From contig CANCQK010000008.1 of NCBI GenBank assembly GCA_947380295.1, positions 67,479-131,478 on the forward strand: 64,000 bases of DNA, written 5' to 3'. The notes beneath the pieces were generated by a model that was not told the DNA's origin, searched no databases, and was given only the letters and a program-made list of their open reading frames with translations. This stretch comes from Bdellovibrionales bacterium. GTDB lineage: Bacteria; Bdellovibrionota; UBA1018. Below are positions 15,794 to 34,605 of this stretch, piece by piece. Both the position numbers and the translations under genes were made by a program. Each line of letters starts with the position of its first letter. Position 1 is the stretch's first letter.

Positions 15794-16846
15794 CTAGTTC
15801 CAAACGCAAGAGGCCGTCCCGTTTCGAGCACTCAGCCATTTGGACGCTTCAGCTCCTCCGACGGCTAATATGCCTTGGCAAACACACAGCCCATGATTTG
15901 CGGTGAGTACGACCACGCCGTCTGAATCCTTGTTGCATGGTGGGGCAGAGGCTGGTGGGGTATTAGCACCCGTTCCTGCAGCCAGGTGGGTTAGAATGAC
16001 AAAGCCACTGCTCACTTGCATCGGCCCGTTCACTTCTAGGGCGGCTCCAGGCCATCGGTTGGGGTCGTTAAAGCTTGGTGTTTTTCCCTGGAGTGGCCGA
16101 TTGACCGGTTCTGGGTTGCGCCCGATTCCTACACGACCATCGTCAGTGACGGTGAGTAATTTCGTGCCGTCGGCATTTTCGATCAGGAGTGCCGCACTGA
16201 TGTCCGAACCAGCTGCGCCCGCATCAGGGCCTCGAATGAGCAACTGACTGTTGAGATCGGGTCTGGGTCCGGCAGCAGGAATCCCCAGGGCTAGGCTCCC
16301 TCCTTTGGTGTCGCTCCCGATAGAGACCTGAGAAGTGGAGTAGGGACTAAATCGCAGTTGTCCTGTGATTTTGGCCTCACCTCTGTTGATCGCATCTCCA
16401 ATTTCGAGATTAGCGAAGTTGGGGGTTGAGGTGATTACAGTCTGGGTTGAATTGATTCGAGTCGTCTGAGTTCCATCTGATTTTCCGAGCTGTATCGTCC
16501 CTGAGTTGTTGATTGTGAAAAGTGGATTTGCGCTGGAGTCATCGACTTGCATGACCACCGGAGATCCCGCTACGCCAGAGATGTTGAGTTGTGCCGGGAG
16601 TGAGGTGGTGAAAAACCCAGTTTTTCCTGGTGTTCCTCGGGAGACAGTCAGGGCATTTCTTCCTACGATGACAGGCTCGGGCAGATTACTGAAACTGAAA
16701 CCAGCAGCGAGACTCAAAGTGCAACTGTTGGGAGGATCAGCATGGACGGGTTCAAGGAGGATCAAGGCAGCCAAAATCCAGATGCATAGACCGAAGGTGA
16801 GTTGAAGTGTACCGGCATTTTTTCTGCATTTTAGATCAGTCTTCAT
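15794..16846 (-). CDS. Secreted Ser/Thr/Gly-rich fibre-like protein, paralog 1, with a C-terminal Cys motif.
   Basis: Signal peptide. The low-complexity body suggests a beta-rich fibre. The C-terminus reads LCVCQGILAVGG...ASCVWN*, and the same motif occurs in the next two genes. The start is set at the internal ATG (MKTDLKCRK...) 5 nt after the upstream paralog's stop. Confidence 0.5.
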   Translation of the reverse strand: MKTDLKCRKNAGTLQLTFGLCIWILAALILLEPVHADPPNSCTLSLAAGFSFSNLPEPVIVGRNALTVSRGTPGKTGFFTTSLPAQLNISGVAGSPVVMQVDDSSANPLFTINNSGTIQLGKSDGTQTTRINSTQTVITSTPNFANLEIGDAINRGEAKITGQLRFSPYSTSQVSIGSDTKGGSLALGIPAAGPRPDLNSQLLIRGPDAGAAGSDISAALLIENADGTKLLTVTDDGRVGIGRNPEPVNRPLQGKTPSFNDPNRWPGAALEVNGPMQVSSGFVILTHLAAGTGANTPPASAPPCNKDSDGVVVLTANHGLCVCQGILAVGGAEASKWLSARNGTASCVWN

Positions 16847-16851
16847 GGTGT

Positions 16852-17769
16852 TCAGCTCCAAACACAGGCAGTGGCGTCAAGGCCGTTGATCCAGTTTGTT
16901 CCGTTGCAAGTGCAAATCACGTAAAGCGAGGTCAGAGCCAGAGCGCCTGTGTTGCTGGAGTCACACTGAAATGGAGCTGATAACAGGGGCTTAAAGCGGA
17001 TGGAGGTGGAAGAACCCTGGATTTTTACGGTTCCACCGACGTCAAAGACGACGCTTGGATTTGTGGGCTGATCTTGGTTCAGACCAACCCAGCCGCCAGT
17101 TGAATTGGTTTTCACATTGAGCAGAGTCCCTGTGCCACCATTTTTATGAATGGTCATGACTGAGGATGGGCCAGTGTTATAAAAGGAGTCAGTAGCGGTT
17201 CCCTTGACCGAAAAAGTGGGTGTGAGTCGAGAGGAATCGGTCGTTGATGGTGGCGAGCCGACTTGCATTCCAACTGGTAGAACGACGGTAGGCACGTTAG
17301 GCAAAGTTGGGTTTGTGTTGATTGAGAGATTGCCATCGATTTGAGTTGTGCCGCTGCTAACAGTCAGCGATTGGTGGAGAGTCAGTGTGCTTGCGTTGAT
17401 GGTGAAGGGTCTGGTGGAATTTTGCGTTCCAATTTGGATGCTACCGTCTGTATTTACGTTAAAAAGGATGTGGGAATCTGCATTTTTAACTTGGAATGGG
17501 GGGGGCCCTGCACTTCCTTTGATATGGACCTGAGCGCTGGGGGATGAAGTGCCGATCCCGATTTTTTGATCGGCTGAAATCATAAAGTCCGGGTTACTCG
17601 CATCTCCGATCCAGAACGAGTCTGAGGGGATTAACGTCGCTGACATCACGCAGCTGTCAGTTGCGGTTGCGAAAGCTGAACCCGGCACGAGCAGGGCTAT
17701 CATGCTGAGTCGTGCAAGAGTATCTAATACTTGGATTCGAATTGTGAATCTCATCCGCGGAAACCCCAT
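16852..17769 (-). CDS. Secreted Ser/Thr/Gly-rich fibre-like protein, paralog 2.
   Basis: Signal peptide (RLSMIALLVPGSAFA). C-terminus is ...LYVICTCNGTNWINGLDATACVWS*. Confidence 0.5.
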   Translation of the reverse strand: MGFPRMRFTIRIQVLDTLARLSMIALLVPGSAFATATDSCVMSATLIPSDSFWIGDASNPDFMISADQKIGIGTSSPSAQVHIKGSAGPPPFQVKNADSHILFNVNTDGSIQIGTQNSTRPFTINASTLTLHQSLTVSSGTTQIDGNLSINTNPTLPNVPTVVLPVGMQVGSPPSTTDSSRLTPTFSVKGTATDSFYNTGPSSVMTIHKNGGTGTLLNVKTNSTGGWVGLNQDQPTNPSVVFDVGGTVKIQGSSTSIRFKPLLSAPFQCDSSNTGALALTSLYVICTCNGTNWINGLDATACVWS

Positions 17770-17830
17770 AGTCTCATTCTAGTATAAAAAAAATAAGTGG
17801 TGCAGTGTGTCTCGCTCGACCTCGGGGGGT

Positions 17831-19624
17831 TTAGTAACAGCCACCGTAATTTACATCCGCGTAGCAAGTTCGACCGTTCGCACCTGCTTTAAACCCACAG
17901 GAAGGCAGCTGGTCTCGATTAATAAAATCAGTGGTTGCATTAACTTTGCATGCCTGCTCGCCGGCAGTTCCCTGGTCGTAAAGTCCGCCAGGGGTACACT
18001 GAGCTGCGGCGTCGCAGCACGTTTCTTTTGTTTGTCTATAGTTCGCATACTTGCTCCAACCGGCAGGGCAATTCCAGTTGTTAGAATTATAATCACCATC
18101 CCAAGAGTCGTGGTTATTCCTGCCGGGCGCGCTGTCAACCGCATACTTACAAAATGGTGTCGACGGCCATGTTGAAGGTGCAGGGTTGGGTGCAGGCTGA
18201 TAAGTCCCAGGATTAGATGAGTAAGCACATTCTGCGTCATTTGTAATGGGGTGAAGAAAACAAACTCGAGAACCATCCAATGCATTGACCCAATTTGTGC
18301 CGTTACAAATGCAGGGCAGCTTGAGCTGGTCCACAGTGAGGTACCCTTTTCGATCCCCATTGCATTTTCTATTGATATCGTTAAAGTCCGTCGGATAAAA
18401 GCTTCCCGTCGCTCGAGAAAGGATAAGGCTGGATTGGGATCCGCTGAGTCGGACGCTCCCATTGACGACTAAACCCGCACTGGCATCTGTACTGGGCCAT
18501 GTTGGAGGCGACGGCGAGGCTCCGATCCATGAAATCCCGTTGTTGCCGATGAGGAAAAGGGGCGAAGGCGATGCTGCTAGTGCTGGGGGCGTCACTGGCG
18601 ACGGGGATGCTTCGACTCTTAGCGCAAAATTGCCCGCTGCCAGCTGTGAGGAAGATGTCAGTGCGACGGTCGCGTCGGAGCTGGACTGAGCGATGCTGAG
18701 CCGACTGATTCCTTTCAGGGGCGATGGACTTGGGCTGGGGGTGTAAGTGAATGTCCCTGTGAGTGAGACATTGCCTTGCACGCGGAACGAGCTAGGTGAT
18801 GGAATCGAGACAGGGCCGTAGAAATCGATTGTGTTGGGGTTGTATGGGTCTCCAAGTGCGATGGTTCCATCGTCCTTGATTTGGAATAGGGAGGCGCTGC
18901 TAGAGCTAGTGACTTTCAAGGAGGTACTCGCAGAGTTAATCCCACCTGAACCTTCTACATAGAGTTTAGGAAAGAGTGACCCTGTGGAAAGAGGGGATCC
19001 TCCCACTTGAACAAAGTGGCTCGTTCCACTGCGATTCACCGAGAAGTCAGGGGTTGCCGAGGGTGACGGAGATGGACCAATATTCAGCGAAAGAGTTGAA
19101 GAGCTCGCAGAAGTGGAAATTCCGCTCACCGTGTAAACGACAAAGTTGCCCGGATCTGAGGTTGAAAAAAGAATCTGAAATCCGCTTGAAAGTGAACTCG
19201 TCAGGTTTGATATGGGACCGCACTTAATATTGATGTCGGTTCGACCGCTTTGGATTGTGCATGAAGCCATGGGACTGAGCCTAGCGGCTGGCAATGCGGT
19301 ACCTAGAGCGTGTAGTCCCACGGAACTCACGGATAAAAGACGACTACCGGTGACGTTGAGCACAACGCCTCCGTTGATCGAGGAGGTGCTGTCTGTTCCC
19401 AGTGCAACGCTGCTAATGGTAGGTGAGGGTACTGGCGAGGGAGAGTATGAGCCTGCTGCGAATCCTTGGTTTGGATCAGCGTTGCTAGAGCCCGGTCCTG
19501 ATGTCAGACCTCCGTAGGGAGCATTGAGCTGGCCGACCGTACTGGGGCTGAGGCTGCATGCATTGAGCCCGAGAGCGAATGCCACAAGGACAAAATGTGA
19601 TGACAGAATTTGACTCACCCTCAA
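17831..19624 (-). CDS. Secreted fibre-like protein, paralog 3, with the shared Cys motif and an extra Cys-rich C-terminal domain.
   Basis: 597 aa with a signal peptide and a Ser/Pro/Thr-rich body. An internal motif LKLPCICNGTNWVNALDGSRVCF matches the C-termini of paralogs 1 and 2. It is followed by a roughly 150-aa domain carrying 12 Cys (…CKYAVDS…NWNCPAGW…CCDAAAQC…CGFKAGANGRTCYADVNYGGCY). Confidence 0.5.
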   Translation of the reverse strand: MRVSQILSSHFVLVAFALGLNACSLSPSTVGQLNAPYGGLTSGPGSSNADPNQGFAAGSYSPSPVPSPTISSVALGTDSTSSINGGVVLNVTGSRLLSVSSVGLHALGTALPAARLSPMASCTIQSGRTDINIKCGPISNLTSSLSSGFQILFSTSDPGNFVVYTVSGISTSASSSTLSLNIGPSPSPSATPDFSVNRSGTSHFVQVGGSPLSTGSLFPKLYVEGSGGINSASTSLKVTSSSSASLFQIKDDGTIALGDPYNPNTIDFYGPVSIPSPSSFRVQGNVSLTGTFTYTPSPSPSPLKGISRLSIAQSSSDATVALTSSSQLAAGNFALRVEASPSPVTPPALAASPSPLFLIGNNGISWIGASPSPPTWPSTDASAGLVVNGSVRLSGSQSSLILSRATGSFYPTDFNDINRKCNGDRKGYLTVDQLKLPCICNGTNWVNALDGSRVCFLHPITNDAECAYSSNPGTYQPAPNPAPSTWPSTPFCKYAVDSAPGRNNHDSWDGDYNSNNWNCPAGWSKYANYRQTKETCCDAAAQCTPGGLYDQGTAGEQACKVNATTDFINRDQLPSCGFKAGANGRTCYADVNYGGCY

Positions 19625-19951
19625 GACGAATACCCCCGCTTGGTTTATTACATACTACTGAGGGTATCGGAATATTTTTGCGCAGTCTAAATGTGTCAAA
19701 TTCGACTCATGTCTATTGGCTTATAATCGAGTTGACTCAGGTAAAAGCTTACCGAATTGTTAATTTTGGAATTTTTTTCAAAGTAAGATTTTTTGATTTT
19801 TGGCCTGGAAACTAACGCAAATCTTACCTGAAAATGGAAGTGACAAAACAAGCCACTGAATTAAGGAGGAAAACATGAGCTACCAGGCAAGGACCTGATC
19901 CAAAATGCCATGGTTGCCATGGGGCTCCGTCCCCATCTACTTTCCCCCCAT

Positions 19952-20938
19952 CTACTTTCCCTCTTTCTCGATAGGGTAGAGCTTTTCTATAATTATTCTG
20001 GCGAGGTTGCGGTTCAGGGTGTGCTCCATCAATGTGATCAAGCCAGGGCTAGAAAAATTAAAATCAGTGACCCAGTTCTCAATTAAATCCACTGCTGCGA
20101 GGCGAATTTGATGGGCTCGGAGGTGTTTTCCGATCTGACGTGCTATTTGAGTCTGTTTTAGGCTGAGTTTTGTTGGCGCAAGGCGGCTCCCACGGTCGAT
20201 ATTGACTCGAAAATCCCCTGGGAGGGGGAGCTTTTTTACCGTAGCGAGGAGTCGTCCGTCCAAAAACCAGAGCCGAGTTTCACCAGTTTCGATGGCTTTT
20301 AGATAACGTTGTAGCAAGACCGGGACTGAGTAGTTTTGAGAAGCTTCTTGGATTTTATGTTGAGCGTCTTTAAGTCCTGGAGTGGTAGAGAAATCGAGGA
20401 GGTGGATGCCGTGACTTTGTGCGTCATGAAGGGGTTTGAGAACAGCTTTTCCTTCTTTCTTTCCAAACTGAACAAGGTGATTCCATTGAGAACTCACGAT
20501 ACTGGGTGGCAAAAGTTTTCCTAGGGTGGATGCCTCGAATTTTTCGTTGAGACTAAATAGGATTCGGGATGGATTAATGAGCTTTTCGGATTTTGAGTCG
20601 GCAAGTGACAGGTGCAAAAGCTGGAGGGGATGCAGATAGGCGAGGTCAATCGGAGGATCAGTTCGGTAGTGAATTGAAGTAAAATCGCTTGGCTTTATAG
20701 CTCGCTCAGCTGTGAATCGAAATGCCTCTGTGGTTCGAGTAGGGTCGATCTTCAGTACTTTTTTGGCATCGACGAGGACGTGAGCACCCTCGAGTCGGAT
20801 CGAGCGAACATCACACCACCATTGCTCAAGTTTGGCTAATTGGGCTTCCTCCATCAGTCGGAGGGTCGTATCACGGGCGTGATCCAAAGTTTCCCAGGGG
20901 TCAGTGATCCACAAGATCCGATGTATTTTTTTAACCAT
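19952..20938 (-). CDS. ATP-grasp protein resembling prokaryotic glutathione synthetase (GshB/RimK-like).
   Basis: The N-terminal domain pattern ILWITDPWETLDHARDTTLRLMEEAQ resembles the GshB N-domain (DP-x-x-x-x-x-x-D-s-t-x-x-L-M-x-E-A-Q). At 328 aa the size is right for GshB. Confidence 0.5.
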   Translation of the reverse strand: MVKKIHRILWITDPWETLDHARDTTLRLMEEAQLAKLEQWWCDVRSIRLEGAHVLVDAKKVLKIDPTRTTEAFRFTAERAIKPSDFTSIHYRTDPPIDLAYLHPLQLLHLSLADSKSEKLINPSRILFSLNEKFEASTLGKLLPPSIVSSQWNHLVQFGKKEGKAVLKPLHDAQSHGIHLLDFSTTPGLKDAQHKIQEASQNYSVPVLLQRYLKAIETGETRLWFLDGRLLATVKKLPLPGDFRVNIDRGSRLAPTKLSLKQTQIARQIGKHLRAHQIRLAAVDLIENWVTDFNFSSPGLITLMEHTLNRNLARIIIEKLYPIEKEGK

Positions 20939-20972: not shown

Positions 20973-21854
20973 CTAGTTCGAGATTTGGAGTTTTCGAATC
21001 ACTTCCTCTGCAATTTGACAGAGGACCTGAGCACGTTCTCCCCAATGAGTTGCTAGTCGTTGACTTGCTGCGGTCAGTTGCTCCAAGGTGCGTTGTCGCG
21101 CTTGTTCGGGCGATAAAAAGAAGAGTACGCTCGTAGGCTCGGGTTGAAAAGTTCCGGGAGCTGCTTCTTTGAGGTCTTCCAGGTCGTCTGCTACTTGAAA
21201 AGCAAGACCGAGTTGGTCTGCAAAGATCAGGATTGATTGACCTTCTGCGCTGCTATCAGGAATACCTGCCAAATCTTTTGGAATCAGCAACGAGGCAATG
21301 AAAAGTGCACCCGTTTTTTGCCGGTGCATTTGATGGAGCTGTTCAATCGAGGAGTCTTTTGAGAGGTCTCCCTCAGCAGCTTGGCCTCCGGTCACGCCGC
21401 GAGGGCCCGAAGCCCAAGCCAGTCGTTTGAGTCCGTGTTTGAGGTGCGGCATCTCGACGGGTGAGTCGAGAAATACATCGAAAGCCAGAGCAATCAGGGA
21501 GTCACCCGCAAGAAGCGCAGTACTTTCACCAAATTTTTTGTGATTGGAGGGGAGTCCTCGTCGAAAATCATCGTCGTCCATGCACGGCAGATCGTCGTGA
21601 ATCAGTGTGAAGCAATGAATCATTTCAATGGCGATCGCAGCCGGAAGGACTTGCTGCGACGGAAGTCCTAACATCTCTGCACAAGCCAAAAGGAGGCGTG
21701 GGCGAATTTTCTTACCCGGTGCTAGGAGTGAATACCGAATCGCCTCTTGGAGGGCCTTGGGGGTTGTACCATCAACGCCCATTAAAAATCGGTCAAGTGT
21801 CTCGGTCAGAACTGAATCAAATTCACTATTAAAACTCTGGGTTTGAACCTTCAT
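20973..21854 (-). CDS. Polyprenyl diphosphate synthase (FPP/GGPP synthase, IspA-like).
   Basis: The first aspartate-rich motif is LIHDDLPCMDDDDFRRG and the second is FQVADDLED. Its start codon abuts the gspN stop. Confidence 0.85.
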   Translation of the reverse strand: MKVQTQSFNSEFDSVLTETLDRFLMGVDGTTPKALQEAIRYSLLAPGKKIRPRLLLACAEMLGLPSQQVLPAAIAIEMIHCFTLIHDDLPCMDDDDFRRGLPSNHKKFGESTALLAGDSLIALAFDVFLDSPVEMPHLKHGLKRLAWASGPRGVTGGQAAEGDLSKDSSIEQLHQMHRQKTGALFIASLLIPKDLAGIPDSSAEGQSILIFADQLGLAFQVADDLEDLKEAAPGTFQPEPTSVLFFLSPEQARQRTLEQLTAASQRLATHWGERAQVLCQIAEEVIRKLQISN

Positions 21855-22771
21855 TAACTTCCTCCGCCAGGAGTCCAGGGTTGAGCGTTGGGTTGAGCCA
21901 CCGACCCGGTGATCATGTATGCATAGCTACCATCAGCTTGTTTTCCTGGACCTAGTATTACATCCAGTAGCATAAAGGACTTTAGAATGTTTTCAGAAAA
22001 TTTGAAATGAGCTTTCACGTTCAAAGTGCTCATTTCGAACGTTTTTCCCAGGGTGATTTCTCCAGTGATGGTAGCAGTTAAATCATCTCCAGAGGCTCCT
22101 GTGCCGGACGGTTTACCGATCTTGACCGTCGTAAGTTTAGCTTTACCTTTTTGGATAGTGGACTGGATGAGGGCCTCGGAAACGCTTAGTTTTGGTAGCG
22201 CGAATCCAGCGATGGTTTGAGGTTCGAGTAAAATTTTAGACAGTCTGAGGTTAATCGTTCCATCGGTTTCATTCAATGCTTGCAGGTCGGTTGAAACCGA
22301 TCCATCTCCTTCTAGAATTGAAGACCCTTGAATTCCTGCAAACAGGGGTAAAATGCCTAATCGCCCGAGATCAAACTGATCAGATTGGAACGAAGCGGAT
22401 AGAGAATTGCTTCGATTTGAAAATGAAGTTTTGAATTTGCCTGAACCTTCTTTGATCTGAATATCAGCTCCCCAACGTCCCATGAACAGGGGGAGGAACC
22501 GAGGCGAAACGCTGATTTGATCGACCCGTGCGGCGTCTGCAGGGTGAGGGAGAGTTAACGTCACTTTTTTCAGGTCGTAAGAGGGGAGTAGGAAAAATGA
22601 AAGATCTTCCTCACTGGCAGAGAAGCTGGCTCCTTGCGCTGCCAAAGCGTCGGCGATCAGAGTGTGGAGCGAATCCTTAATCGGCTCCCGTGGGAGCTTG
22701 AGGATCGTAAAAAATATGAGGCAGACCAATCCAAAAAGAAACCAACTAGCGCGTTTTAACTTAGAACTCAT
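21854..22771 (-). CDS. gspN: Type II secretion system protein N-like (last gene of the gsp operon).
   Basis: N-terminal TM helix (SWFLFGLVCLIFFTI) and periplasmic body. Its position directly after gspM fits the canonical gene order. Start trimmed to ATG 22771. Confidence 0.45.
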   Translation of the reverse strand: MSSKLKRASWFLFGLVCLIFFTILKLPREPIKDSLHTLIADALAAQGASFSASEEDLSFFLLPSYDLKKVTLTLPHPADAARVDQISVSPRFLPLFMGRWGADIQIKEGSGKFKTSFSNRSNSLSASFQSDQFDLGRLGILPLFAGIQGSSILEGDGSVSTDLQALNETDGTINLRLSKILLEPQTIAGFALPKLSVSEALIQSTIQKGKAKLTTVKIGKPSGTGASGDDLTATITGEITLGKTFEMSTLNVKAHFKFSENILKSFMLLDVILGPGKQADGSYAYMITGSVAQPNAQPWTPGGGS

Positions 22772-22784
22772 TTCATAACTCCTC

Positions 22785-23423
22785 TTAAGGGGATTGCGTT
22801 GGAGTAAAGCCCGACAGAGATAGGGTTGCATCGAGATATCCTGATCCATCAGATTGAGCTTCAACTGATAGATTACGTACCTTAATTGGACGGCTCCCCG
22901 TTTCGAGTGTCTTGATTAAAAGGGTGAGTTTCTTGATGTTCACATGCTTCACCTTCAGGTCGATTAGGGTTTCTTTCGCGCTATCCGAGGATTGGCCAGC
23001 TTTTTCGGCGAGTAGGCTGAGATTCGCAGGTTCAATTCCAGAGCTAGTTGCGGAACTTTCAAAGTAGGAAAGCCAAGGCGCAGTTTCTGGCTTACTTCCA
23101 GCGGCTCCTGCTCCGGCTGCGGGCATGAGATCCTTGAGTCGACGAATCTCGTCGTTGGCTCCTCGGATAAAGTTAACCAGGCTGTTTTTATCCTCAAGTT
23201 CAGTTTTTAAGCTGTGCGTAGACCAAACTGAGCTGAGCAGCGTAAAAAATACTGACAACAGTGCAAAAGTACCGAGTCCTAATTTAATGTAGGTTTTGGT
23301 TTGTGGTTCGAGTTCGTCCCACTTAGCGCGAGCTTCTTGGTACCACTGCTGGTCATTGAGCCATTCTGAGGCCGTACGGGACCAATCAGTCAATTTTTCG
23401 GCCAGGGTTTGATTACTTTCCAT
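22785..23423 (-). CDS. gspM: Type II secretion system protein M.
   Basis: Short cytoplasmic N-terminus, a single TM (LGLGTFALLSVFFTLLSSVW) and a periplasmic domain. Position between gspL and gspN. Confidence 0.55.
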   Translation of the reverse strand: MESNQTLAEKLTDWSRTASEWLNDQQWYQEARAKWDELEPQTKTYIKLGLGTFALLSVFFTLLSSVWSTHSLKTELEDKNSLVNFIRGANDEIRRLKDLMPAAGAGAAGSKPETAPWLSYFESSATSSGIEPANLSLLAEKAGQSSDSAKETLIDLKVKHVNIKKLTLLIKTLETGSRPIKVRNLSVEAQSDGSGYLDATLSLSGFTPTQSP

Positions 23424-25068
23424 AGGCGTCCTCGGTTGGAGTTCCAGAATAACTTACTCTCCATTTTTTTACTTCAGAACCGGCAGGAGTGAATTCTTCC
23501 AAATCTCCACGTTTAATTGGATTCATTTTTCGGCTTAAAATCGATGTGAGTCGCTCAGCGACCTGAGGATTCGCGATCGTGAAGGTGAGCTGGGTTGAGT
23601 TCAGGGCATCCGTCTTTGTGTACGAATCAGTGGAGGATACCCCCACTTGAAACTTGTCCAGGTCGACGACTAAATCCTTTGGAATTGCCATCGAAATCTG
23701 ATTGAGAAATGCAGCTGGGGATTTTGGATTAGGCCCAAAAAGTCGCGACAAATCCCTCTGTTTAGTGAGTTCTTTGTTGAGCGCTAATTTCAGCTTTTTT
23801 GGCTCTGCTAAATAGCCCTTAAGCGTTGCGCTGGTAATCTGTCCGAAAAAACTCTTAATGCTCTTTTCAAGTACTGTGTTCGTAGTTTGAAGTCGAGAGT
23901 CGTAGACAAAAGACTGAATACTGACGCTTAGGATTAAACTCGCAGTCATTGCAGCGAGTGACATGGCAGGCTTTTTCAAGATTTTAAAATCAATCTTTTG
24001 AACAATAGAAACTTTTGCGAACTCGCCGTGTCTAAAGTTAATACAGGCATTACGAGCCTGTCCTACCAGGCAAAGTGCCATGGATGCAGCGAGGATGAAT
24101 TTGCTGTCAGTTTGCTCGGAGTAGGTGATGCCTGAGGTGGCAGTTGCGCTCAAGGCAGGGAGTTTCTGAGTAGGAATATTGAACTGCTGCGAAATCCAGG
24201 GTCCCAATCCGGGCAGCAGGGAGGTCCCCCCTGAGAGGTAGATTTTTAGAATCGACTTGCGAGTGTAGTTTCTCGAGGTCAGGTTAATGTGTCGCAGCTC
24301 ATTGATAAAAGGCTCGAACGCAGCTTTTAAGCACTCGGAGAGTTCAGCTTGCTCCGGGGGTAATTCGCCGGTCTCAGCTCCGCTCTGAATCATGCCTTGA
24401 TTGATCTGCGTCACTTCTGCCTGTTCAATGGGGACGTTGAACTTTTGACTGATCGCTAACGTGAGATCTCGGCCACCAAACGAGAAGTCTCTGATCATGG
24501 CAGGTGCTCCATGCCAGTGAAGATAAAACGTTGTTCGAAAATGGCCAATTTGAATTAATAGGGTCGGACCTTCCTTTTCGGGGTCGCTCAGAACCTGGTT
24601 CATTAAAGTGCGATAGGCCCAGGCTTCTGTTGTAATGACATCAGGCTCGATCGAGGTCTGAGTCCAAGGCTGGATCGCAGATCGAATTTGATCTTTGAGG
24701 GTGGCGGCGATATGGACTAGGCTGCCACCCTTAGTCTGTGTTAGTGGGACAAATTGGTAGGCCGAATTTTCAATCGCGAAAGGGAGTTCGTCTTCAAGTT
24801 CATAGGCTACGCTCGCCTGAATGGCCTTCTTGTCGCGCGTCGGCATTTGAATGTTGCGAAAAGTGAACTGTGGACTAGCTAGAGCCACGACGACTCGATC
24901 CGGCTTCCGGGAGCGATTGCTGATCCAGTTCGCTACCGTCTGAGCGGGGGTGCCCTGAGGATCATGTGAGATTTCGTGGTAGTCGTGGATCTCAAACCGA
25001 CCAAAGGCGCTATCGATCTCCACGAACTTAATACTTGAATTGCCTAAATCGACTCCTAAGATTCTCAT
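23413..25068 (-). CDS. gspL: Type II secretion system protein L (actin-like cytoplasmic domain, TM helix, periplasmic domain).
   Basis: The N-terminus MRILGVDLGNSSIKFVEI matches the GspL/PilM actin-like fold. A central TM helix is present. Gene order. Confidence 0.65.
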   Translation of the reverse strand: MRILGVDLGNSSIKFVEIDSAFGRFEIHDYHEISHDPQGTPAQTVANWISNRSRKPDRVVVALASPQFTFRNIQMPTRDKKAIQASVAYELEDELPFAIENSAYQFVPLTQTKGGSLVHIAATLKDQIRSAIQPWTQTSIEPDVITTEAWAYRTLMNQVLSDPEKEGPTLLIQIGHFRTTFYLHWHGAPAMIRDFSFGGRDLTLAISQKFNVPIEQAEVTQINQGMIQSGAETGELPPEQAELSECLKAAFEPFINELRHINLTSRNYTRKSILKIYLSGGTSLLPGLGPWISQQFNIPTQKLPALSATATSGITYSEQTDSKFILAASMALCLVGQARNACINFRHGEFAKVSIVQKIDFKILKKPAMSLAAMTASLILSVSIQSFVYDSRLQTTNTVLEKSIKSFFGQITSATLKGYLAEPKKLKLALNKELTKQRDLSRLFGPNPKSPAAFLNQISMAIPKDLVVDLDKFQVGVSSTDSYTKTDALNSTQLTFTIANPQVAERLTSILSRKMNPIKRGDLEEFTPAGSEVKKWRVSYSGTPTEDAYGK

Positions 25069-25078
25069 TTCTGCGCTC

Positions 25079-26362
25079 CTAATCGATTCTCATAAAATAA
25101 ATAGTCAGGCCAGAATCAGGTAGTGTACTCGGACCTTGGGGGTTAAGTTGAGTTTGGTCAAGTGCAAGATTAGTGGACGATTTATCTGCTAACCTGACCC
25201 ACGCCCGGATGGTCCGAGTGGCTGAGTTGACTGTAGCTTGCACTGTAATTTTAAAAACACTTTCATCGGTGATGATCGAGATGTTCTTCTTTTTGATCGA
25301 ATCTTTGAGTTCAGTGAGGCCCCGGTCATTGCCCTTGTAGGCTGCGACGAATTTCGAGATGTAGGTGAAAAAATCATCGGCTTTTTTGAATGTATTATCG
25401 GCCGCGTCTGAATCTCGGTTTTTAAAGAACTCGTCTGCCTCTTCCTTGGTCATTCCAGGGACTAAAGACCGCAGTACAGGTTCTTTAATATGATTAACGT
25501 TAATTTCATTCGCTAAGTAGCCTGTGGTGAATTGAGGGGAGAGGAGTTGATAGAGTTCGTCATCCATCATAGATAGGTTATGAAGTTCAGCCACGGAGTA
25601 AAAGGGGGCTCGCTTCATCGGAACCGTATCTCGTGATGGAGCGGTTCTTCTCTCGTACTTACGATCGGCCCAGGCAGCCATCTGATCGACGAGTTCGGGA
25701 ACTCGGAAATCTCGATAGATCGCCCCAAAGTCAGGATCTGACTGAGACTTTTGATAGATGATTTGATGAATGGTTTCTTCCATTGCCGTGCGGGCGGCCT
25801 GAGGATCGGCCTGAGCTGGTATCTTGTTGGGATCTCCTAGCGGTGGAGGTGGCGGTGACGCCGATGGCGATGTTGAAGGCCCAAAGCCCGGAATTAAAGA
25901 GTTCAGGTTATACTTGGTGGATTCGGATTCAATCGTCGCTGACATTTTGCCCTCGAGACCTGATTCTTTTTCGAATTTTTTTATAATATCTCGATCGCCA
26001 ATCGACATTCCCGGAATATTCGTTGGGAAAGGATAATAAAATGGAAAGCTCCATAGCTTTTCAAGTGCAGCCTTGGGGATCATGCCCTGACCCGTTTTGC
26101 CACCTAATGATGCAAGATTTAAGGCTTGTTTGTAGTACTTGAGTCTCAGGAGTGAGAGCTTTAAACCACTCTTAGCCAGGTAGTGAGCTTGAGCTTGATC
26201 CACGCCCCCATAGGAAATCGCCTGGCTCACTTGCGTGATGTAGACGAAGTCAGTCACTAACAGTGAAAGCACAGCAATCGAAGACATGACCATCATTAAG
26301 GCCATCCCCTGCGTGTCTCTGCCTAGTCGAGAGCCTTTTTTATTCGGTTGCTGGAATTCCAT
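25079..26362 (-). CDS. gspK: Type II secretion minor pseudopilin K.
   Basis: Basic leader followed by a hydrophobic segment (QGMALMMVMSSIAVLSLLVTDFVY). Large periplasmic domain. Gene order. The start is ambiguous between 26362 and 26305. Confidence 0.6.
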   Translation of the reverse strand: MEFQQPNKKGSRLGRDTQGMALMMVMSSIAVLSLLVTDFVYITQVSQAISYGGVDQAQAHYLAKSGLKLSLLRLKYYKQALNLASLGGKTGQGMIPKAALEKLWSFPFYYPFPTNIPGMSIGDRDIIKKFEKESGLEGKMSATIESESTKYNLNSLIPGFGPSTSPSASPPPPPLGDPNKIPAQADPQAARTAMEETIHQIIYQKSQSDPDFGAIYRDFRVPELVDQMAAWADRKYERRTAPSRDTVPMKRAPFYSVAELHNLSMMDDELYQLLSPQFTTGYLANEINVNHIKEPVLRSLVPGMTKEEADEFFKNRDSDAADNTFKKADDFFTYISKFVAAYKGNDRGLTELKDSIKKKNISIITDESVFKITVQATVNSATRTIRAWVRLADKSSTNLALDQTQLNPQGPSTLPDSGLTIYFMRID

Positions 26363-27152
26363 TGAATGGGATCTCCGGTCTAAATTTGTACTTGCCTTCG
26401 AACGACAGATTTTTTCCCCCCATGACCTCAATATCGATCACAATTAGGTCTGGAATTGAATATTTTGGCTGCTCCTGCTCGCTATCAAAACTTTTTAGAG
26501 TTCTCCACGTGTTTCCTTCTCGAAAAAGGTAGGAGAATGACAGTTTCTTTACCCCATGAAGTAGATCATAGGTCTGAACTAACTGGTCTTTGTCGTCTCG
26601 TGTGAATGCATTAGGGCTTTCCGTCTTAACTAAGACGGAGGTTCCTTTGGCTTGAGTGTCTTTGTCCTCTCGCTTGAGCTCATAGGAGATCTTCGCGAAT
26701 TCGGAACCCGGAGTATCCTTATAGATGCGACTGTAGGTGAGGGAAATAAACGAGAGTTTGCTATCTGTTCCGCTAAAGCGTGATGGTCTAAGTCCCGTCT
26801 CGTGGATGGCTGGAGACCAAAACAGATAGGGGCTTTGAAGGTCTTCGCCCGGCATGTTGGGAATCATCAGTGGAGGGGCATTGGGTTTGACGGTGCCCTT
26901 AGGGAGAAGAAGGGTAGGTGAATAGATGAGGGCGATATCCTTTTGTACAATCGACATAGCAAGTCGGATCGTGTTGTAAAAAGTGCCTTCGGCAGCGAGC
27001 GTATCCCGAAGTTTAAATGTTTCTACGGTAGCTTGATAAATTCCAAGACTAATGAAAGCCATGATGGCCATAGCGACAACCACTTCAAGAAGGGTAAATC
27101 CCCCTGCACCGCCAGGAGGAGTGGTGTCGAGACGGCTTTGAGATCCGGACAT
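26340..27152 (-). CDS. gspJ: Type II secretion minor pseudopilin J.
   Basis: Prepilin-type N-terminus GGFTLLEVVVAMAIMAFISLGIY. The start is trimmed to ATG 27152 so that a short leader precedes the G-F-T-L-L-E cleavage motif. Confidence 0.65.
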   Translation of the reverse strand: MSGSQSRLDTTPPGGAGGFTLLEVVVAMAIMAFISLGIYQATVETFKLRDTLAAEGTFYNTIRLAMSIVQKDIALIYSPTLLLPKGTVKPNAPPLMIPNMPGEDLQSPYLFWSPAIHETGLRPSRFSGTDSKLSFISLTYSRIYKDTPGSEFAKISYELKREDKDTQAKGTSVLVKTESPNAFTRDDKDQLVQTYDLLHGVKKLSFSYLFREGNTWRTLKSFDSEQEQPKYSIPDLIVIDIEVMGGKNLSFEGKYKFRPEIPFNGIPATE

Positions 27153-27165
27153 GCCGTTCTCTGTG

Positions 27166-27711
27166 CTATTGGCCGGTGAGTGAAATTTCATGATTGAGGT
27201 TGACCCAAAATGTTGAGAGAGCAAAACTCTTTTCTTTCGCTCCTTGTTTCCAAAAAACGGTGACTGAGACTTGCCTGATGGCTTTAGAGAGGTTGCTACT
27301 GATGACTTGATTGATCATGTCACCTCCCGGGGCAGATCCACCTCCGGTAGTCTCTTTTCCTTCTCCGGAGCTTCCCCCAGCCATTCCCATGAAATTGGGG
27401 ATGGAAAGTTCTTTAATCTTAGTTTGCCATCGATAATCTTGATAAGGGGACTCGAAAGTTCCAGACTTCTCTTTCGGGATCTCGTCAAAGGTTTTACCCT
27501 GAATTGCAAATTCAGTTTCGACCATCTGATTTTTAGCTAACATTCCAACAATATTCATCTGCTTGGCACGAGTCGTTGCATTAATGCTGCCGCTTTCAAT
27601 CGCCAGGATCGAGGCAAAGGCGAGGGTCATGATAGCCAAAGCAAACACGACCTCAACAATCGTGAATCCTGAGTTCGGCAGCAAGGGTGCGGAAAGTCGC
27701 TTAACGCCCAA
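27166..27711 (-). CDS. gspI: Type II secretion minor pseudopilin I.
   Basis: Prepilin N-terminus SGFTIVEVVFALAIMTLAFASILAIE. Confidence 0.65.
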   Translation of the reverse strand: MGVKRLSAPLLPNSGFTIVEVVFALAIMTLAFASILAIESGSINATTRAKQMNIVGMLAKNQMVETEFAIQGKTFDEIPKEKSGTFESPYQDYRWQTKIKELSIPNFMGMAGGSSGEGKETTGGGSAPGGDMINQVISSNLSKAIRQVSVTVFWKQGAKEKSFALSTFWVNLNHEISLTGQ

Positions 27712-28306
27712 AAATTTCAGTCCCCTCGATATGTCGATTGTAAAGGTCTGTGGTTCCTAGCAGTGCAGAAATGACGAGCGAAATCTCGTGTTTCGAACCA
27801 TCTTTCAGGTAAATGATTGTCTTTTCGGAGAGTCCCGAGGGAAAAAAATGGGCGTAAGCCATTCCTTCTTTTTGAGGCTCTGTGCTGATTGGACCTCTAA
27901 TTCCATCAAACTGCACGCCAGTGGGAAGTCCTACTTTTTTGCGGGTAATAGACTTGTCCATCGTAAAGGCTGAGCTAGATTCTTCTTTCCCGTTGAGCGA
28001 CATCTGAAACTTTTTTTTGTGGGCGGCTTTTTCTGCAGATTCCTTGGTGTCCAGGAGGAGTTGAGCTGGACCAGACTCGACCCAATAGGCTTTCTCCTTG
28101 AGGTCAAAGGCGACTCGATAAACTCGCCCTGAAATGACCGCTGCATTGTAAGTCTCCTTAATGCGACTCGCCAAATCTCTGGCCGTCGAATTAATTGAGA
28201 TCTGAAAAAAGCTCGAAATATTAGGTAATGCAATTGAGAACATCAAAACAATGATGCCCATTGCTACTAATATTTCGATCAAGGAGAATCCCTTAGAGTC
28301 TTTCAT
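27701..28306 (-). CDS. gspH: Type II secretion minor pseudopilin H.
   Basis: Prepilin N-terminus MKDSKGFSLIEILVAMGIIVLMFSIALPN. Start trimmed to ATG 28306; the longer ORF would overlap gspG by 80 nt. Confidence 0.65.
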   Translation of the reverse strand: MKDSKGFSLIEILVAMGIIVLMFSIALPNISSFFQISINSTARDLASRIKETYNAAVISGRVYRVAFDLKEKAYWVESGPAQLLLDTKESAEKAAHKKKFQMSLNGKEESSSAFTMDKSITRKKVGLPTGVQFDGIRGPISTEPQKEGMAYAHFFPSGLSEKTIIYLKDGSKHEISLVISALLGTTDLYNRHIEGTEIFGR

Positions 28307-28325
28307 CGAATGAAATCCGTCGACA

Positions 28326-28793
28326 TCAGTCAAGGTGATCTGAGTCGACCTCCTTTTTGAGTTTATTTTTAGCACCGTTAGAGCGAAGGAAATACTTTTG
28401 GCCATCCGAAGTGTATTCGTAGTCTTCGTTCCAAGGATCTAGAGGAAGTTTTTTACCTTGAATCAATCCGTCTGGATCAAAGTTTTTGCAATTGACTGAA
28501 GCAGGAGCGCTAATGAGGGATTGTAGGCCCTCTTCCGTCGTAGGGTAGCGTCCGCAGATTCTGCGGAAGTCATCGAGTACAACACCGAGTTGACGGATTT
28601 GCATCCGGGTCGAACTCACTTTAGCTTCATCGTACTTTTTGGACACATTGAGAGCCACCATACTCAAAATGAGTGACGCGATCCCCAAGACCACCATAAT
28701 TTCGATCAAGCTGAACCCTTTAGATTCTCCTAGTTCACGATTGAGCAAGAGTTTTTGCCAGATTTTTGTTTTCTTCATAAGTTTCTCCTTCAT
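28326..28793 (-). CDS. gspG: Type II secretion major pseudopilin G.
   Basis: KGFSLIEIMVVLGIASLILSMVALNV, followed by a conserved GspG body (RMQIRQLGVVLDDF...YPTTEEGLQSL). Confidence 0.85.
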   Translation of the reverse strand: MKEKLMKKTKIWQKLLLNRELGESKGFSLIEIMVVLGIASLILSMVALNVSKKYDEAKVSSTRMQIRQLGVVLDDFRRICGRYPTTEEGLQSLISAPASVNCKNFDPDGLIQGKKLPLDPWNEDYEYTSDGQKYFLRSNGAKNKLKKEVDSDHLD

Positions 28794-28796
28794 TAG

Positions 28797-30020: not shown

Positions 30021-30022
30021 GC

Positions 30023-31747: not shown

Positions 31748-31749
31748 AT

Positions 31750-34593: not shown

Positions 34594-34605
34594 AAAGTTC
34601 TCTCG

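What the first reader, a model, noticed from the sequence alone, without database searches (positions are those of the whole stretch)
15794..19624. Tandem cluster of three paralogous secreted fibre-like proteins sharing a C[VI]C[NQ]G[TI]NW[VI]N...C motif
Three consecutive minus-strand genes encode signal-peptide proteins with Ser/Thr/Gly/Asn/Pro-rich low-complexity bodies. The bodies have a beta-solenoid or fibre-like composition. All three share a distinctive cysteine motif: LCVCQGILAVGG...ASCVWN, LYVICTCNGTNWINGLDATACVWS and LKLPCICNGTNWVNALDGSRVCF. Two end with this motif. The third carries an extra 150-aa domain with 12 Cys. This resembles diversified adhesin or fibre families with variable tips, such as the mosaic adhesive trimer fibres reported for Bdellovibrio, and may be a prey- or host-recognition repertoire.
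Basis: partly seen in the sequence, partly recalled or inferred. Interest (0 to 1): 0.6.

Follow-up and report, generated by a model that had tools for sequence, protein, structure and literature searches.

The report
Miniature disulfide-capped MAT-like fibre gene trio
Three neighbouring genes of a Bacteriovoracaceae-type bacterium encode short secreted proteins whose bodies are related to the shaft of the trimeric prey-binding fibres of Bdellovibrio. Each ends in a small four-cysteine cap, and the three genes change much faster than the genes on either side.

Summary
Three minus-strand genes (p3 17831-19624, p2 16852-17769, p1 15794-16846/16861) are paralogs, and all have N-terminal export signals and Ser/Thr/Gly/Asn/Pro-rich bodies. 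All share a C-terminal module with four invariant Cys.

No Pfam, NCBIfam or PHROG model hits the window proteins. However, a profile of the p1/p2 family hits solved Bdellovibrio MAT fibre structures: Bd2133 at E=3.5e-16, plus Bd1334, Bd3182 and Bd2439. It contains the MAT 'VGIGTxxPxxxL' repeat (hhalign 98.5%).

They differ from MAT proteins. They are only 305-597 aa, and p1 and p2 have no room for the ~130-aa MAT N-terminal domain. None has an S74 chaperone. p3 is a lipoprotein with an Ig-like domain and an orphan 10-Cys distal domain.

The shared Cys motif is a conserved cap, not a variable tip. It also ends long fibres (667 and 981 aa) elsewhere.

The gene order is conserved in related metagenome genomes (2 to 6 copies). 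Against a close relative the block is a sharp divergence island: 62-92% nucleotide identity versus 91-99% in the flanks.

Most likely these are short trimeric envelope or surface fibres. The adhesin role, the trimer state and export by the adjacent T2SS are inferred. I rate it a new variant of a known kind.

The parts
19671..19699 (-). Sigma-70-like promoter TTGACA-17-AATATT, about 45 nt upstream of the p3 start
   Evidence: 10 of 12 matches. The surrounding ~110 nt are almost identical in the relative L006, although the coding sequence that follows has diverged.
17831..19624 (-). p3: 597-aa lipoprotein paralog (TTG start, GGGGG ribosome-binding site 8-12 nt upstream)
   Evidence: The family HMM built without p3 scores it at E=3e-15. 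Orthologs are P0005, P0012/P0162, P0023 and L010_p3. The NCBI call (510 aa) drops the signal.
19556..19624 (-). p3 lipoprotein signal peptide, residues 1-23 (…FALGLNAC)
   Evidence: Read from the sequence. The lipobox Cys is conserved in P0005 (LNAC), P0012 (VSAC) and P0023 (LSGC).
19115..19435 (-). p3 residues 64-170: Ig-like (IPT-type) beta-sandwich domain after a ~40-aa low-complexity linker
   Evidence: This is the only confident part of the AF2 model (block pLDDT 64-88). Foldseek hits are weak and Ig-like in PDB. A viral 'IPT domain' hit has probability 0.99.
18365..19042 (-). p3 fibre core, residues ~195-420, colinear with the p1 and p2 bodies
   Evidence: Alignments A2 and A8. BLASTP to p2 covers residues 220-452. 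The generic repeat HMM matches residues 219-255 at E=7e-4.
18260..18364 (-). p3 four-Cys cap module (C421, C438, C440, C455)
   Evidence: The cap HMM scores it at E=8e-20.
17834..18259 (-). p3 distal Cys-rich domain: 142 aa with 10 Cys, with conserved FCK[FY]..CPxGW...GCY landmarks
   Evidence: alignment A7. There is no Pfam, NCBIfam or PDB sequence relative. The AF2 model is of low confidence beyond residue 490.
16852..17769 (-). p2: 305-aa secreted paralog; signal peptide residues 1-34 (17668-17769)
17425..17571 (-). p2 residues 67-115: canonical MAT-type fibre repeat (QKIGIGTSSPSAQVHIKG…LFNVNTDGSIQIGT)
   Evidence: hhalign of family A6 against the generic repeat A10 gives probability 98.5% and E=1.8e-15. 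The unit HMM also matches it.
16855..16965 (-). p2 four-Cys cap (C269, C286, C288, C302; …CDSSNTGALALTSLYVICTCNGTNWINGLDATACVWS)
15794..16846 (-). p1: 350-aa secreted paralog (longest ORF begins at TTG 16861); signal peptide residues 1-36 (16739-16846); starts 5 nt after the p2 stop
   Evidence: The ATG start agrees with orthologs P0006 and P0007.
16493..16609 (-). p1 fibre repeat 1 (residues 80-118)
   Evidence: Unit HMM built from non-family proteins, E=4e-5.
16118..16249 (-). p1 fibre repeat 2 (residues 200-243, …LLTVTDDGRVGIGRNPEP…)
   Evidence: Unit HMM, E=5e-6.
15797..15937 (-). p1 four-Cys cap (C304, C321, C323, C347 in 350-aa numbering)

Best explanation
The block is one transcription unit (promoter, then p3, p2, p1). 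It encodes three ancient paralogs of a small, unannotated family of miniature MAT-type, phage-tail-fibre-like proteins.

**Proposed mechanism.**
- Each protein is exported by Sec. p3 is then lipidated; p1 and p2 are cut by signal peptidase I.
- In the periplasm, the bodies, each with one or two recognisable MAT-type 'VGIGTxxPxxxL' repeats, assemble into an intertwined trimeric beta-helix, as the homologous MAT shafts do.
- The C-terminal four-Cys module probably forms two disulfides. It would serve as a folding nucleus and permanent end cap, taking the place of the cleavable S74 chaperone or the globular tips of classical MAT fibres.
- p3 supplies a membrane anchor (lipid plus flexible linker plus Ig-like spacer). 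It also supplies a disulfide-rich distal domain that is the best candidate for a ligand-binding tip.
- The fibres sit in the envelope or on the surface, possibly exported by the adjacent type II secretion system. There they meet a changing partner such as prey surface, phage or substrate, which would explain why the block diverges so fast.

**Shown:** paralogy, export signals, homology to the MAT shaft, the conserved cap, synteny and the divergence island.

**Inferred:** trimer state, disulfide pairing, location, export route and adhesin role.
For: **Paralogy.**

**Homology to the MAT shaft.**
- Profile A6 against PDB hits Bd2133 (8OND) at E=3.5e-16 in three stretches. By my mapping of chain positions to residue numbers, these fall within its beta-helix regions.
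- It also hits Bd1334 at 1.5e-5, Bd3182 at 1.8e-4 and Bd2439 at 6e-4. The next hit is MyRF.
- The PDB codes and the MAT capping-loop motif V-G-G/N-pi-x-x-P-x-x-x-L are given in PMC10769870.
- hhalign of the family against the generic repeat gives 98.5%. The generic repeat against PDB hits 8OND at E=8e-13.

**Wider relatives.** The exhaustive HMMER search found 3749 relatives. Most of the 150 listed are multi-repeat proteins of 600-5700 aa. Two of the ten scanned carry Peptidase_S74 and one K1-lyase_C. Ortholog P0027 hits tail-fibre PHROGs.

**The cap also ends long fibres.** P0100 (981 aa) and P0103 (667 aa) carry it.

**Lipobox.** It is conserved in p3 and three full-length orthologs.

**Synteny.** The order p3-p2-p1 is conserved in L006, L010 and L011.

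**Divergence island.**
- Nucleotide identity is 62-92% inside the block and 91-99% outside, with edges at the promoter and at the p1 stop.
- dN is 0.14-0.20 and omega 0.36-0.45 in the three genes. The flanking genes show dN 0.013-0.022 and omega 0.10-0.12.

**Secretion system.** A complete gspC-N operon lies two genes upstream on the same strand.
Against: - The window proteins give no PDB hit to MAT on their own. They have no Pfam, NCBIfam or PHROG hit either. The link needs the family profile.
- Monomer AF2 models are poor (pLDDT 38 and 53). No fold search gave a significant match. The trimeric beta-helix is therefore inferred from homology, not modelled.
- p1 and p2 have no recognisable anchor.
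- No codon window shows omega above 1. Raised dS (0.31-0.54 against 0.13-0.18) could reflect recombination rather than selection.
- Proximity to the T2SS is part of general collinearity of this genome region, so it says little.
- The predatory lifestyle of this organism is assumed from taxonomy only.
Confidence: 0.55

Rival explanations
1. The three paralogs do not form three homotrimers. They co-fold 1:1:1 into a single heterotrimeric beta-helical fibre. p3 contributes the lipid anchor and the distal domain. This would be a bacterial counterpart of the beta/gamma/delta-sarcoglycan tower.
For: - The tight p3-p2-p1 order is conserved in four genomes, with p1 starting 5 nt after p2.
- The bodies are colinear. 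In the window and L006, the spacing between the two anchor motifs is nearly equal in p1 and p2 (158-163 residues).
- L012 has six copies, two long and four short, which fits two sets.
- Only p3-type proteins carry an anchor.
- Beta/gamma/delta-sarcoglycans are three paralogs of ~290-320 aa that form a heterotrimeric beta-helix. One paper says this resembles phage tail fibres and suggests a bacterial or phage origin.
- Gamma-sarcoglycan is the best PDB hit of the cap profile (E=0.021, [24 protein letters not shown]). It is 8th for the full family profile.
Against: - The solved MAT fibres are described as symmetric trimers (PMC10769870).
- One related contig has only a p2-type plus a p1-type gene at the locus.
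- Spacing differs by 12-15 residues between p1 and p2 in L010 and L011.
- A Cys-parity argument failed: p3 orthologs have either one or two Cys in the Ig-like domain.
- No multimer prediction was possible.
Confidence: 0.15
2. They are periplasmic or outer-membrane-inner-leaflet structural beta-solenoid proteins, for example envelope spacers. They are not surface adhesins and play no part in recognising prey or other cells.
For: - No outer-membrane translocation domain is present.
- p3's lipobox with S at +2 would send it to the outer membrane by Lol, by default to the inner leaflet (general knowledge of Lol sorting).
- Disulfide-rich domains fold in the periplasm.
- p1 and p2 lack any known surface anchor.
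Against: - Relatives with the same shaft repeat (MAT proteins) were shown to be surface displayed (PMC10769870).
- A housekeeping periplasmic scaffold would not be expected to diverge about ten times faster than its neighbours.
Confidence: 0.2
3. They are remnants of a prophage or tailocin tail-fibre module that was recently acquired.
For: The shaft repeat is shared with phage tail fibres.
Against: - There are no phage genes nearby. The flanks are GSH-synthetase-like, polyprenyl synthase, T2SS, MFS and EVE genes.
- The same chromosomal position is kept in at least five divergent genomes.
- GC content is not distinctly different from the rest of the window.
- tblastn of p1 against 50,697 phage records finds nothing.
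- All three proteins carry bacterial Sec or lipoprotein signals.
Confidence: 0.03

Closest known systems
Mosaic adhesive trimer (MAT) fibres of Bdellovibrio bacteriovorus HD100 (Caulton et al. 2024, PMC10769870; PDB 8OND, 8OML, 8OJN, 8OL4)
   Same: - Both have a signal peptide.
- The shaft is built from the same 'VGIGTxxPxxxL' capping-loop repeat (family profile against 8OND, E=3.5e-16).
- Both come from the phylum Bdellovibrionota.
- Both occur as several paralogs.
- Both have a non-S74 terminus, as in the 'NS74' MAT subgroup.
   Different: - These proteins are 305-597 aa. MAT proteins are described as typically ~1000 aa, with short members of 626-843 aa.
- p1 and p2 start their first repeat about 30-45 residues after the predicted signal-peptide cleavage site. 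This leaves no room for the ~130-aa conserved MAT N-terminal domain.
- p3 is a lipoprotein with an Ig-like domain instead.
- The terminus is a 35-45-aa four-Cys cap. None of the described MAT tips (S74, beta-sandwich, TNF-like, C-type lectin) was found here.
- They form a syntenic set of three tandem genes.
Phage tail fibres and tailspikes with a C-terminal S74 intramolecular chaperone (K1F endosialidase, T5 L-shaped fibre), and MyRF
   Same: - The repeat family is shared. Many relatives found by the family profile carry Peptidase_S74.
- MyRF is the next PDB hit after the MAT structures.
- BFVD fold hits are enriched in S74 and tail-fibre proteins, although weakly.
   Different: - There is no S74 domain.
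- The proteins are not phage-encoded.
- A permanent disulfide cap takes the position of the cleaved chaperone.
Long bacterial fibres ending in the …FLPPRMT..ERDAI..PAxGLMVYNTxxNxxxxYNGxxW module, and long fibres P0100 and P0103 ending in the same Cys cap
   Same: - The shaft repeats are the same.
- P0100 (981 aa) and P0103 (667 aa) end in a cap of the same kind (…SLAVTSLYEMCICKDGTGWVSTNGGAVCVWQ).
- The cap and the YN module align in the G-x-x-x-[LY]-…-C/Y-x-[NG]-G-x-x-W core.
   Different: - hhalign support for cap versus YN module is weak (probability 35%, E=4e-4).
- The YN module has no conserved cysteines.
- The long fibres have many more repeats.
Beta/gamma/delta-sarcoglycan heterotrimeric beta-helix of the dystrophin-glycoprotein complex (PDB 9C3C, 8YT8)
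   Same: - Both are sets of three paralogs of about 290-320 aa.
- Each has an N-terminal hydrophobic segment, a beta-strand-repeat body and a C-terminal Cys cluster with a Y-x-[IL]-C-x-C-x(1,2)-G…C pattern.
- Published work describes the sarcoglycan tower as tail-fibre-like and possibly of bacterial or phage origin (PMC13478489).
   Different: - Sequence similarity is not significant beyond one chain. The other four chains score E=7-75.
- hhalign probability is 14%.
- Pfam Sarcoglycan_1 hits 0 of 15 family members.
- The generic repeat against sarcoglycans gives probability 0.6%.
- Sarcoglycans keep a type II transmembrane anchor, whereas these proteins have cleaved signals or a lipid anchor.

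Membership tests
MAT fibre superfamily (Bdellovibrio) | Shaft of intertwined beta-helix/prism repeats with the capping-loop motif V-G-G/N-pi-x-x-P-x-x-x-L | tested here: met
   Family profile A6 hits 8OND at E=3.5e-16, 8OML at 1.5e-5, 8OJN at 1.8e-4 and 8OL4 at 6e-4. hhalign against the generic repeat gives 98.5%. The motif is visible in p2 (KIGIGTSSPSAQV) and p1 (RVGIGRNPEPV). It is met at family-profile level only; single window proteins give no hit.
MAT fibre superfamily (Bdellovibrio) | [quoted passage not shown] | tested here: not met
   In p1 and p2 the first shaft repeat begins about 30-45 residues after the predicted cleavage site, so a 130-aa domain cannot fit. p3 has a ~105-aa Ig-like domain after a ~40-aa linker. 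Its relation to the MAT N-domain could not be tested because no MAT N-domain sequence was available.
MAT fibre superfamily (Bdellovibrio) | N-terminal signal peptide | tested here: met
   Read from the sequence: an h-region followed by AxA-type sites in p1 and p2, and a lipobox in p3. No dedicated predictor was available.
MAT fibre superfamily (Bdellovibrio) | C-terminus is either an S74 chaperone/protease or an independently folding adhesive tip domain | tested here: inconclusive
   No S74 domain was found. p1 and p2 end in only a 35-45-aa Cys cap. p3 has a 142-aa Cys-rich domain of unknown fold.
MAT fibre superfamily (Bdellovibrio) | Homotrimeric assembly and display on the predator surface | not testable with these tools
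   Only monomer AF2 was available. No experimental data exist.
S74-type phage tail fibre / tailspike | C-terminal Peptidase_S74 intramolecular chaperone (PF13884, SDxxxK) | tested here: not met
   Pfam at E<=1 for the three proteins and at E<=10 for 15 family members gives no PF13884 hit. Distant relatives P0016 and P0022 do have it.
Sarcoglycan beta/gamma/delta family (Pfam Sarcoglycan_1) | Sequence match to the family model or to solved chains | tested here: not met
   0 of 15 members hit Sarcoglycan_1. hhalign probability is 14% over the C-terminal 52 columns. The cap profile scores gamma-SG at E=0.021 but the other four chains at E=7-75. The reverse HMM gives at most 12 bits.
Sarcoglycan beta/gamma/delta family (Pfam Sarcoglycan_1) | Type II single-pass membrane anchor | tested here: not met
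   p1 and p2 have cleavable signal peptides and p3 has a lipobox. Apart from one marginal window inside the p1 cap (residue 311), no transmembrane-like segment occurs beyond residue 60.
Sarcoglycan beta/gamma/delta family (Pfam Sarcoglycan_1) | Heterotrimeric co-folding of three paralogs into one beta-helix | not testable with these tools
   No multimer prediction was available. The indirect clues are mixed.

The most novel reading that the evidence does not exclude
The conserved p3-p2-p1 set encodes one lipid-anchored heterotrimeric beta-helical fibre, with one chain from each paralog. Its Y-x-[IL]-C-x-C…G…C cap is the bacterial relative of the C-terminal cysteine cluster of beta/gamma/delta-sarcoglycans. 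This would give a concrete prokaryotic candidate ancestor, or a convergent twin, for the sarcoglycan tower, whose bacterial or phage origin has so far been proposed only from shape.
Probability: 0.08. Interest if true: 0.85.

Novelty: new variant of a known kind. Interest (0 to 1): 0.5.

Why it matters
MAT fibres were described only in 2024, as Bdellovibrio's broad-range prey-recognition proteins. All described members are long and share one N-terminal anchoring domain.

This trio shows that the same shaft can be built in a minimal format of about 300 aa. It lacks that anchor and is closed by a small disulfide-locked cap instead of an S74 chaperone or a large tip. One paralog has a lipid anchor.

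- **Engineering.** The format is small enough for expression, structure determination and fibre engineering. The cap is a candidate portable trimerisation or termination module.
- **Biology.** The sharp divergence island marks the locus as one of the fastest-changing parts of these genomes. That is where determinants of prey range, or phage or grazer exposure, would be expected.
- **Evolution.** If the three chains co-assemble, it would be a rare bacterial heterotrimeric beta-helix. It would also be a testable link to sarcoglycans.

Tried and rejected
- **Direct family scans.** Pfam, NCBIfam and PHROGs on the three proteins gave nothing usable. The DUF4402 hit of p2 (20.4 bits, below the 25.2-bit cutoff) is seen only in three close p2 orthologs and I treated it as noise.
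- **Phage search.** tblastn of p1 against phage genomes found no match.
- **Word-indexed homolog search.** It found only 9 relatives. The exhaustive HMMER search was needed.
- **First PDB profile search.** The mixed alignment A2 missed the MAT structures and returned only a chance Fv hit. The cleaner p1/p2 alignment A6 found them.
- **Structure prediction.** Monomer AF2 of p2 (pLDDT 38) and of p3 (pLDDT 53) gave no usable shaft model.
- **Sarcoglycan homology.** I tested it five ways and it is not supported statistically.
- **Cysteine parity.** The idea was 5 Cys in mature p1 and p2 against an even count in p3, implying a p1-p2 disulfide. I dropped it because two p3 orthologs have a single Cys in the Ig-like domain.
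- **Repeat spacing.** Used as a test of heterotrimer register, it was inconclusive.
- **p3 distal domain.** It has no PDB sequence relative.
- **Locus search with an alignment.** The search for related loci failed because no conserved 7-10-column stretch exists.
- **MAT paper supplement.** It holds no N-terminal domain sequences.
- **RNA families.** Rfam finds nothing in the window.

Full report
**1.

The region contains three consecutive minus-strand ORFs. I call them p3 (17831-19624, 597 aa), p2 (16852-17769, 305 aa) and p1 (15794-16861 as the longest ORF).

- For p1, the ATG at 16846 gives 350 aa. This agrees with orthologs and with the public gene call.
- The quoted cysteine strings are present.
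- C.C.G..W occurs in no other long reading frame of the window.

Paralogy is beyond chance.

- BLASTP p1-p2 gives E=4e-9 and p2-p3 gives E=7e-10.
- p1-p3 is not significant directly.
- An HMM built only from p1- and p2-type sequences finds p3 at E=3e-15. It finds nothing else among 166 window ORFs.

It has four invariant cysteines (p2 C269, C286, C288, C302) and a near-invariant Trp.

Composition is as described. S+T+G+N+P is 43-49%, against 28% in 22 other ORFs. Glu is almost absent.

One correction: the extra p3 domain is 142 aa with 10 Cys.

**2. Export signals and operon**

- p1 and p2 have classical signal peptides, with a cysteine 4-9 residues into the mature chain. That cysteine is present in all 12 p1- and p2-type representatives that retain the N-terminus.
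- p3 begins with a lipoprotein signal (FALGLNAC). Full-length orthologs keep a lipobox cysteine: LNAC, VSAC and LSGC.
- The NCBI call of p3 (510 aa) omits this signal.
- A TTGACA-17-AATATT promoter-like site lies about 45 nt upstream of p3. It is nearly identical in a relative.
- p2 follows p3 after 61 nt. p1 starts 5 nt after the p2 stop.
- A terminator-like hairpin follows the upstream GSH-synthetase-like gene.

These features are consistent with the three genes forming their own transcription unit.

**3. What the proteins are**

No curated library recognises the window proteins. The word-indexed search of 5.8 billion proteins found only nine relatives, all unnamed.

The exhaustive profile search gave 3749 hits at E<=1e-3.

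- Most of the 150 listed hits are proteins of 600-5700 aa. They match one part of the profile many times over.
- Of ten scanned, two carry the Peptidase_S74 tail-fibre chaperone and one carries K1-lyase_C.
- Many others end in S74-like coiled-coil tails (my reading of the tail sequences), or in a recurrent …GLMVYNTxxN…YNGxxW module.

I built a repeat model from those unrelated proteins only. Its consensus is SSGNVGIGTTSPSAKLDVSGSSGTTSALKISSSTGTSKLTITSNGNVGIGTT.

- It finds two units in p1 (residues 80-118 and 200-243).
- It finds one unit in p2 (residues 69-115).
- It finds one unit in p3 (residues 219-255).

Profile-profile comparison of the p1/p2 family with this repeat gives 98.5% probability and E=1.8e-15.

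The decisive result is a PDB search with the p1/p2 family profile.

| PDB hit | Protein | E-value |
|---|---|---|
| 8OND | Bd2133 | 3.5e-16 (three stretches) |
| 8OML | Bd1334 | 1.5e-5 |
| 8OJN | Bd3182 | 1.8e-4 |
| 8OL4 | Bd2439 | 6e-4 |
| 7DC3 / 5YHU | MyRF | 0.02 / 0.08 |

By my mapping of chain positions to residue numbers, the three 8OND stretches fall within the beta-helix regions of Bd2133.

- The first four entries are the MAT fibre structures of Caulton et al..
- That paper describes the 'capping loop' motif V-G-G/N-pi-x-x-P-x-x-x-L. It reports that the motif also retrieves MyRF.
- The same motif is visible in p2 (KIGIGTSSPSAQV) and p1 (RVGIGRNPEPV).

It is visible only at profile level: p1 and p2 alone give no MAT hit in the PDB.

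**4. How they differ from MAT fibres**

The paper states that all 21 HD100 MATs have a conserved ~130-aa beta-rich domain right after the signal peptide. It describes them as typically ~1000 aa, with short members of 626-843 aa. They end in S74 or in a globular tip.

- p1 and p2 are about 300-350 aa. Their first repeat starts about 30-45 residues after the cleavage site, so that domain cannot be present.
- None of the three has an S74 domain.
- p1 and p2 end in the 35-45-aa Cys cap.

p3 has a different layout.

- After the lipid-anchor signal comes a ~40-aa low-complexity linker.
- Residues 64-170 form a confidently predicted beta-sandwich (block pLDDT 64-88). It gives weak Ig-like and IPT-like fold hits.
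- The core and the cap follow.
- The last part is a 10-Cys domain with conserved FCK[FY]…CPxGW…GCY landmarks. It has no relative in Pfam or in PDB sequences.

The cap is not private to this family. Fibres of 667 aa (P0103) and 981 aa (P0100) end in the same module. Both hit many tail-fibre PHROGs. The cap's core aligns weakly with the cysteine-free YN module (probability 35%). I therefore read the cap as a fibre-terminating module, not a variable tip.

**5. Genomic distribution**

The only relative found among species-representative genomes is a MAG labelled Bacteriovoracaceae bacterium (lineage). The order T2SS, polyprenyl synthase, GSH-synthetase-like, p3, p2, p1, MFS, Mem_trans, EVE recurs as follows.

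| Locus | Arrangement |
|---|---|
| L006 | as above |
| L010 | as above |
| L011 | as above |
| L004 | partly; contig is cut upstream |

Copy number is not fixed.

- One contig has only a p2-type and a p1-type gene. That p1-type gene has its own extra Cys tail.
- A more distant locus, L012, has six tandem paralogs: two long and four short.

All family members come from metagenome assemblies and are unnamed or 'hypothetical'.

**6. Divergence island**

I compared the window with its close relative (L006 and L009).

- Flanking DNA is 91-99% identical.
- The three-gene block is 62-92% identical.
- The change happens between the still-conserved promoter (19717) and p3, and again at the p1 stop (15843).

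Nei-Gojobori estimates are as follows.

| Genes | dN | dS | omega |
|---|---|---|---|
| p1, p2, p3 | 0.14-0.20 | 0.31-0.54 | 0.36-0.45 |
| MFS and GSH-synthetase-like flanks | 0.013-0.022 | 0.13-0.18 | 0.10-0.12 |

- Variation is patchy along the bodies.
- The caps are among the better conserved segments (p2 residues 278-305: 89% identity).
- No 40-codon window exceeds omega 1.
- The raised dS points to recombinational import of old alleles, to balancing or diversifying selection, or to both. This pattern is typical of exposed surface structures (inference).

**7. Mechanism proposed**

*Shown:*
- The three proteins are paralogous and carry export signals.
- Their shafts are homologous to MAT fibre shafts.
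- The cap is conserved.
- The genes keep a syntenic operon.
- The block diverges fast.

*Inferred from homology to MAT and S74 fibres:*
- The chains form intertwined trimeric beta-helices.
- Folding is nucleated at the C-terminus. There the four-Cys cap, oxidised in the periplasm, replaces the S74 chaperone.

*Inferred from anatomy:*
- p3 tethers a fibre to a membrane through its lipid, holds it off on a linker and an Ig-like spacer, and presents the Cys-rich domain distally.
- How p1 and p2 are retained is unknown.

*Weakly inferred:*
- Export across the outer membrane uses the complete gspC-N system two genes upstream. This adjacency is part of general collinearity.
- The role in adhesion or prey recognition rests on the analogy with MAT.

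**8. The heterotrimer and sarcoglycan lead**

With the cap profile, the best PDB hit is gamma-sarcoglycan (E=0.021). The match covers [24 protein letters not shown]. I recalled the sequence from memory and checked it against the PDB chains.

Beta/gamma/delta-sarcoglycans are three ~290-320-aa paralogs that co-fold into a heterotrimeric beta-helix (PMC12404760). One paper describes this structure as tail-fibre-like and possibly of bacterial or phage origin (PMC13478489).

The parallel with three ~300-aa paralogs in one operon is striking, but the statistics do not carry it.

- The other four sarcoglycan chains score E=7-75.
- hhalign gives 14% and 0.6%.
- Pfam Sarcoglycan_1 hits none of 15 family members.
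- The reverse HMM gives at most 12 bits.

I keep this as the most novel reading not excluded. It is not a finding.

**9. Verdict**

This is a real, previously unannotated family. It is a new, miniature, disulfide-capped and partly lipid-anchored variant of the MAT / tail-fibre-like kind, located in a hot spot of divergence.

It is wrong about the motif being a variable tip. The functional claim is untested.

Noticed in passing
window 21854-35697 (- strand): A complete type II secretion operon lies here, in the order gspC (T2SSC+PDZ), D (secretin, 947 aa), E, F, G, three N_methyl pseudopilins, K, L-like (PilM_2), then M- and N-like ORFs without a Pfam hit. It is followed on the same strand by a polyprenyl synthase and a GSH-synthetase-like ATP-grasp gene, and then by the fibre trio.
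   Followed up: partly
window 19720-19976, compared with L006 1033-1662 and L009: The intergenic region upstream of the p3 promoter carries a large indel relative to the close relative. The relative has an extra 209-aa minus-strand ORF with no Pfam hit between the GSH-synthetase-like gene and p3.
   Followed up: no
window 17831-19624: The public NCBI gene call for p3 is 510 aa and a Logan call is 584 aa. Both start downstream of the TTG and so lose all or part of the conserved lipoprotein signal.
   Followed up: yes
L012 1995-9413: A more distant relative has six tandem paralogs (475, 468, 262, 293, 336 and 221 aa) between the GSH-synthetase-like gene and the MFS gene, all with the Cys cap. 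The 475-aa one carries two copies of the CPxGW…GC[YQ] Cys-rich domain. Several of the gene calls look N-terminally truncated.
   Followed up: partly
L011 10488-11525: An IS605 OrfB / Cas12f-like TnpB gene sits just downstream of the MFS gene next to the fibre trio in one relative. It replaces the Mem_trans/EVE neighbours seen elsewhere.
   Followed up: no
contig of ERZ1426845 (no DNA held): Here the locus has only a p2-type (P0086) and a p1-type (P0025, 404 aa) gene, with an AAA_14/DUF4143 ATPase gene upstream in place of p3. The p1-type protein has gained its own short Cys-rich C-terminal extension.
   Followed up: no
window 19671-19690 (- strand): The -10 region of the p3 promoter contains TTCCGATACC. 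Together with TAGA 15 nt upstream, it partly resembles a sigma-28 (FliA) promoter (TAAA-N15-GCCGATAA). This was seen by eye only and not tested.
   Followed up: no
p3 residues 122 and 135 (window ~19220-19261); orthologs: The Ig-like domain of p3 has a conserved 'SC[TSV]I' cysteine that resembles the N-terminal 'SC[TV][LM]S' cysteine of mature p1 and p2. Its partner Cys is present in three orthologs and absent in two. The role of these N-proximal cysteines is unexplained.
   Followed up: partly
window 1-64000: There are no Rfam matches at gathering threshold anywhere in the window. GC skew (G-C)/(G+C) on the + strand is positive in 31 of the 32 2-kb windows.
   Followed up: no
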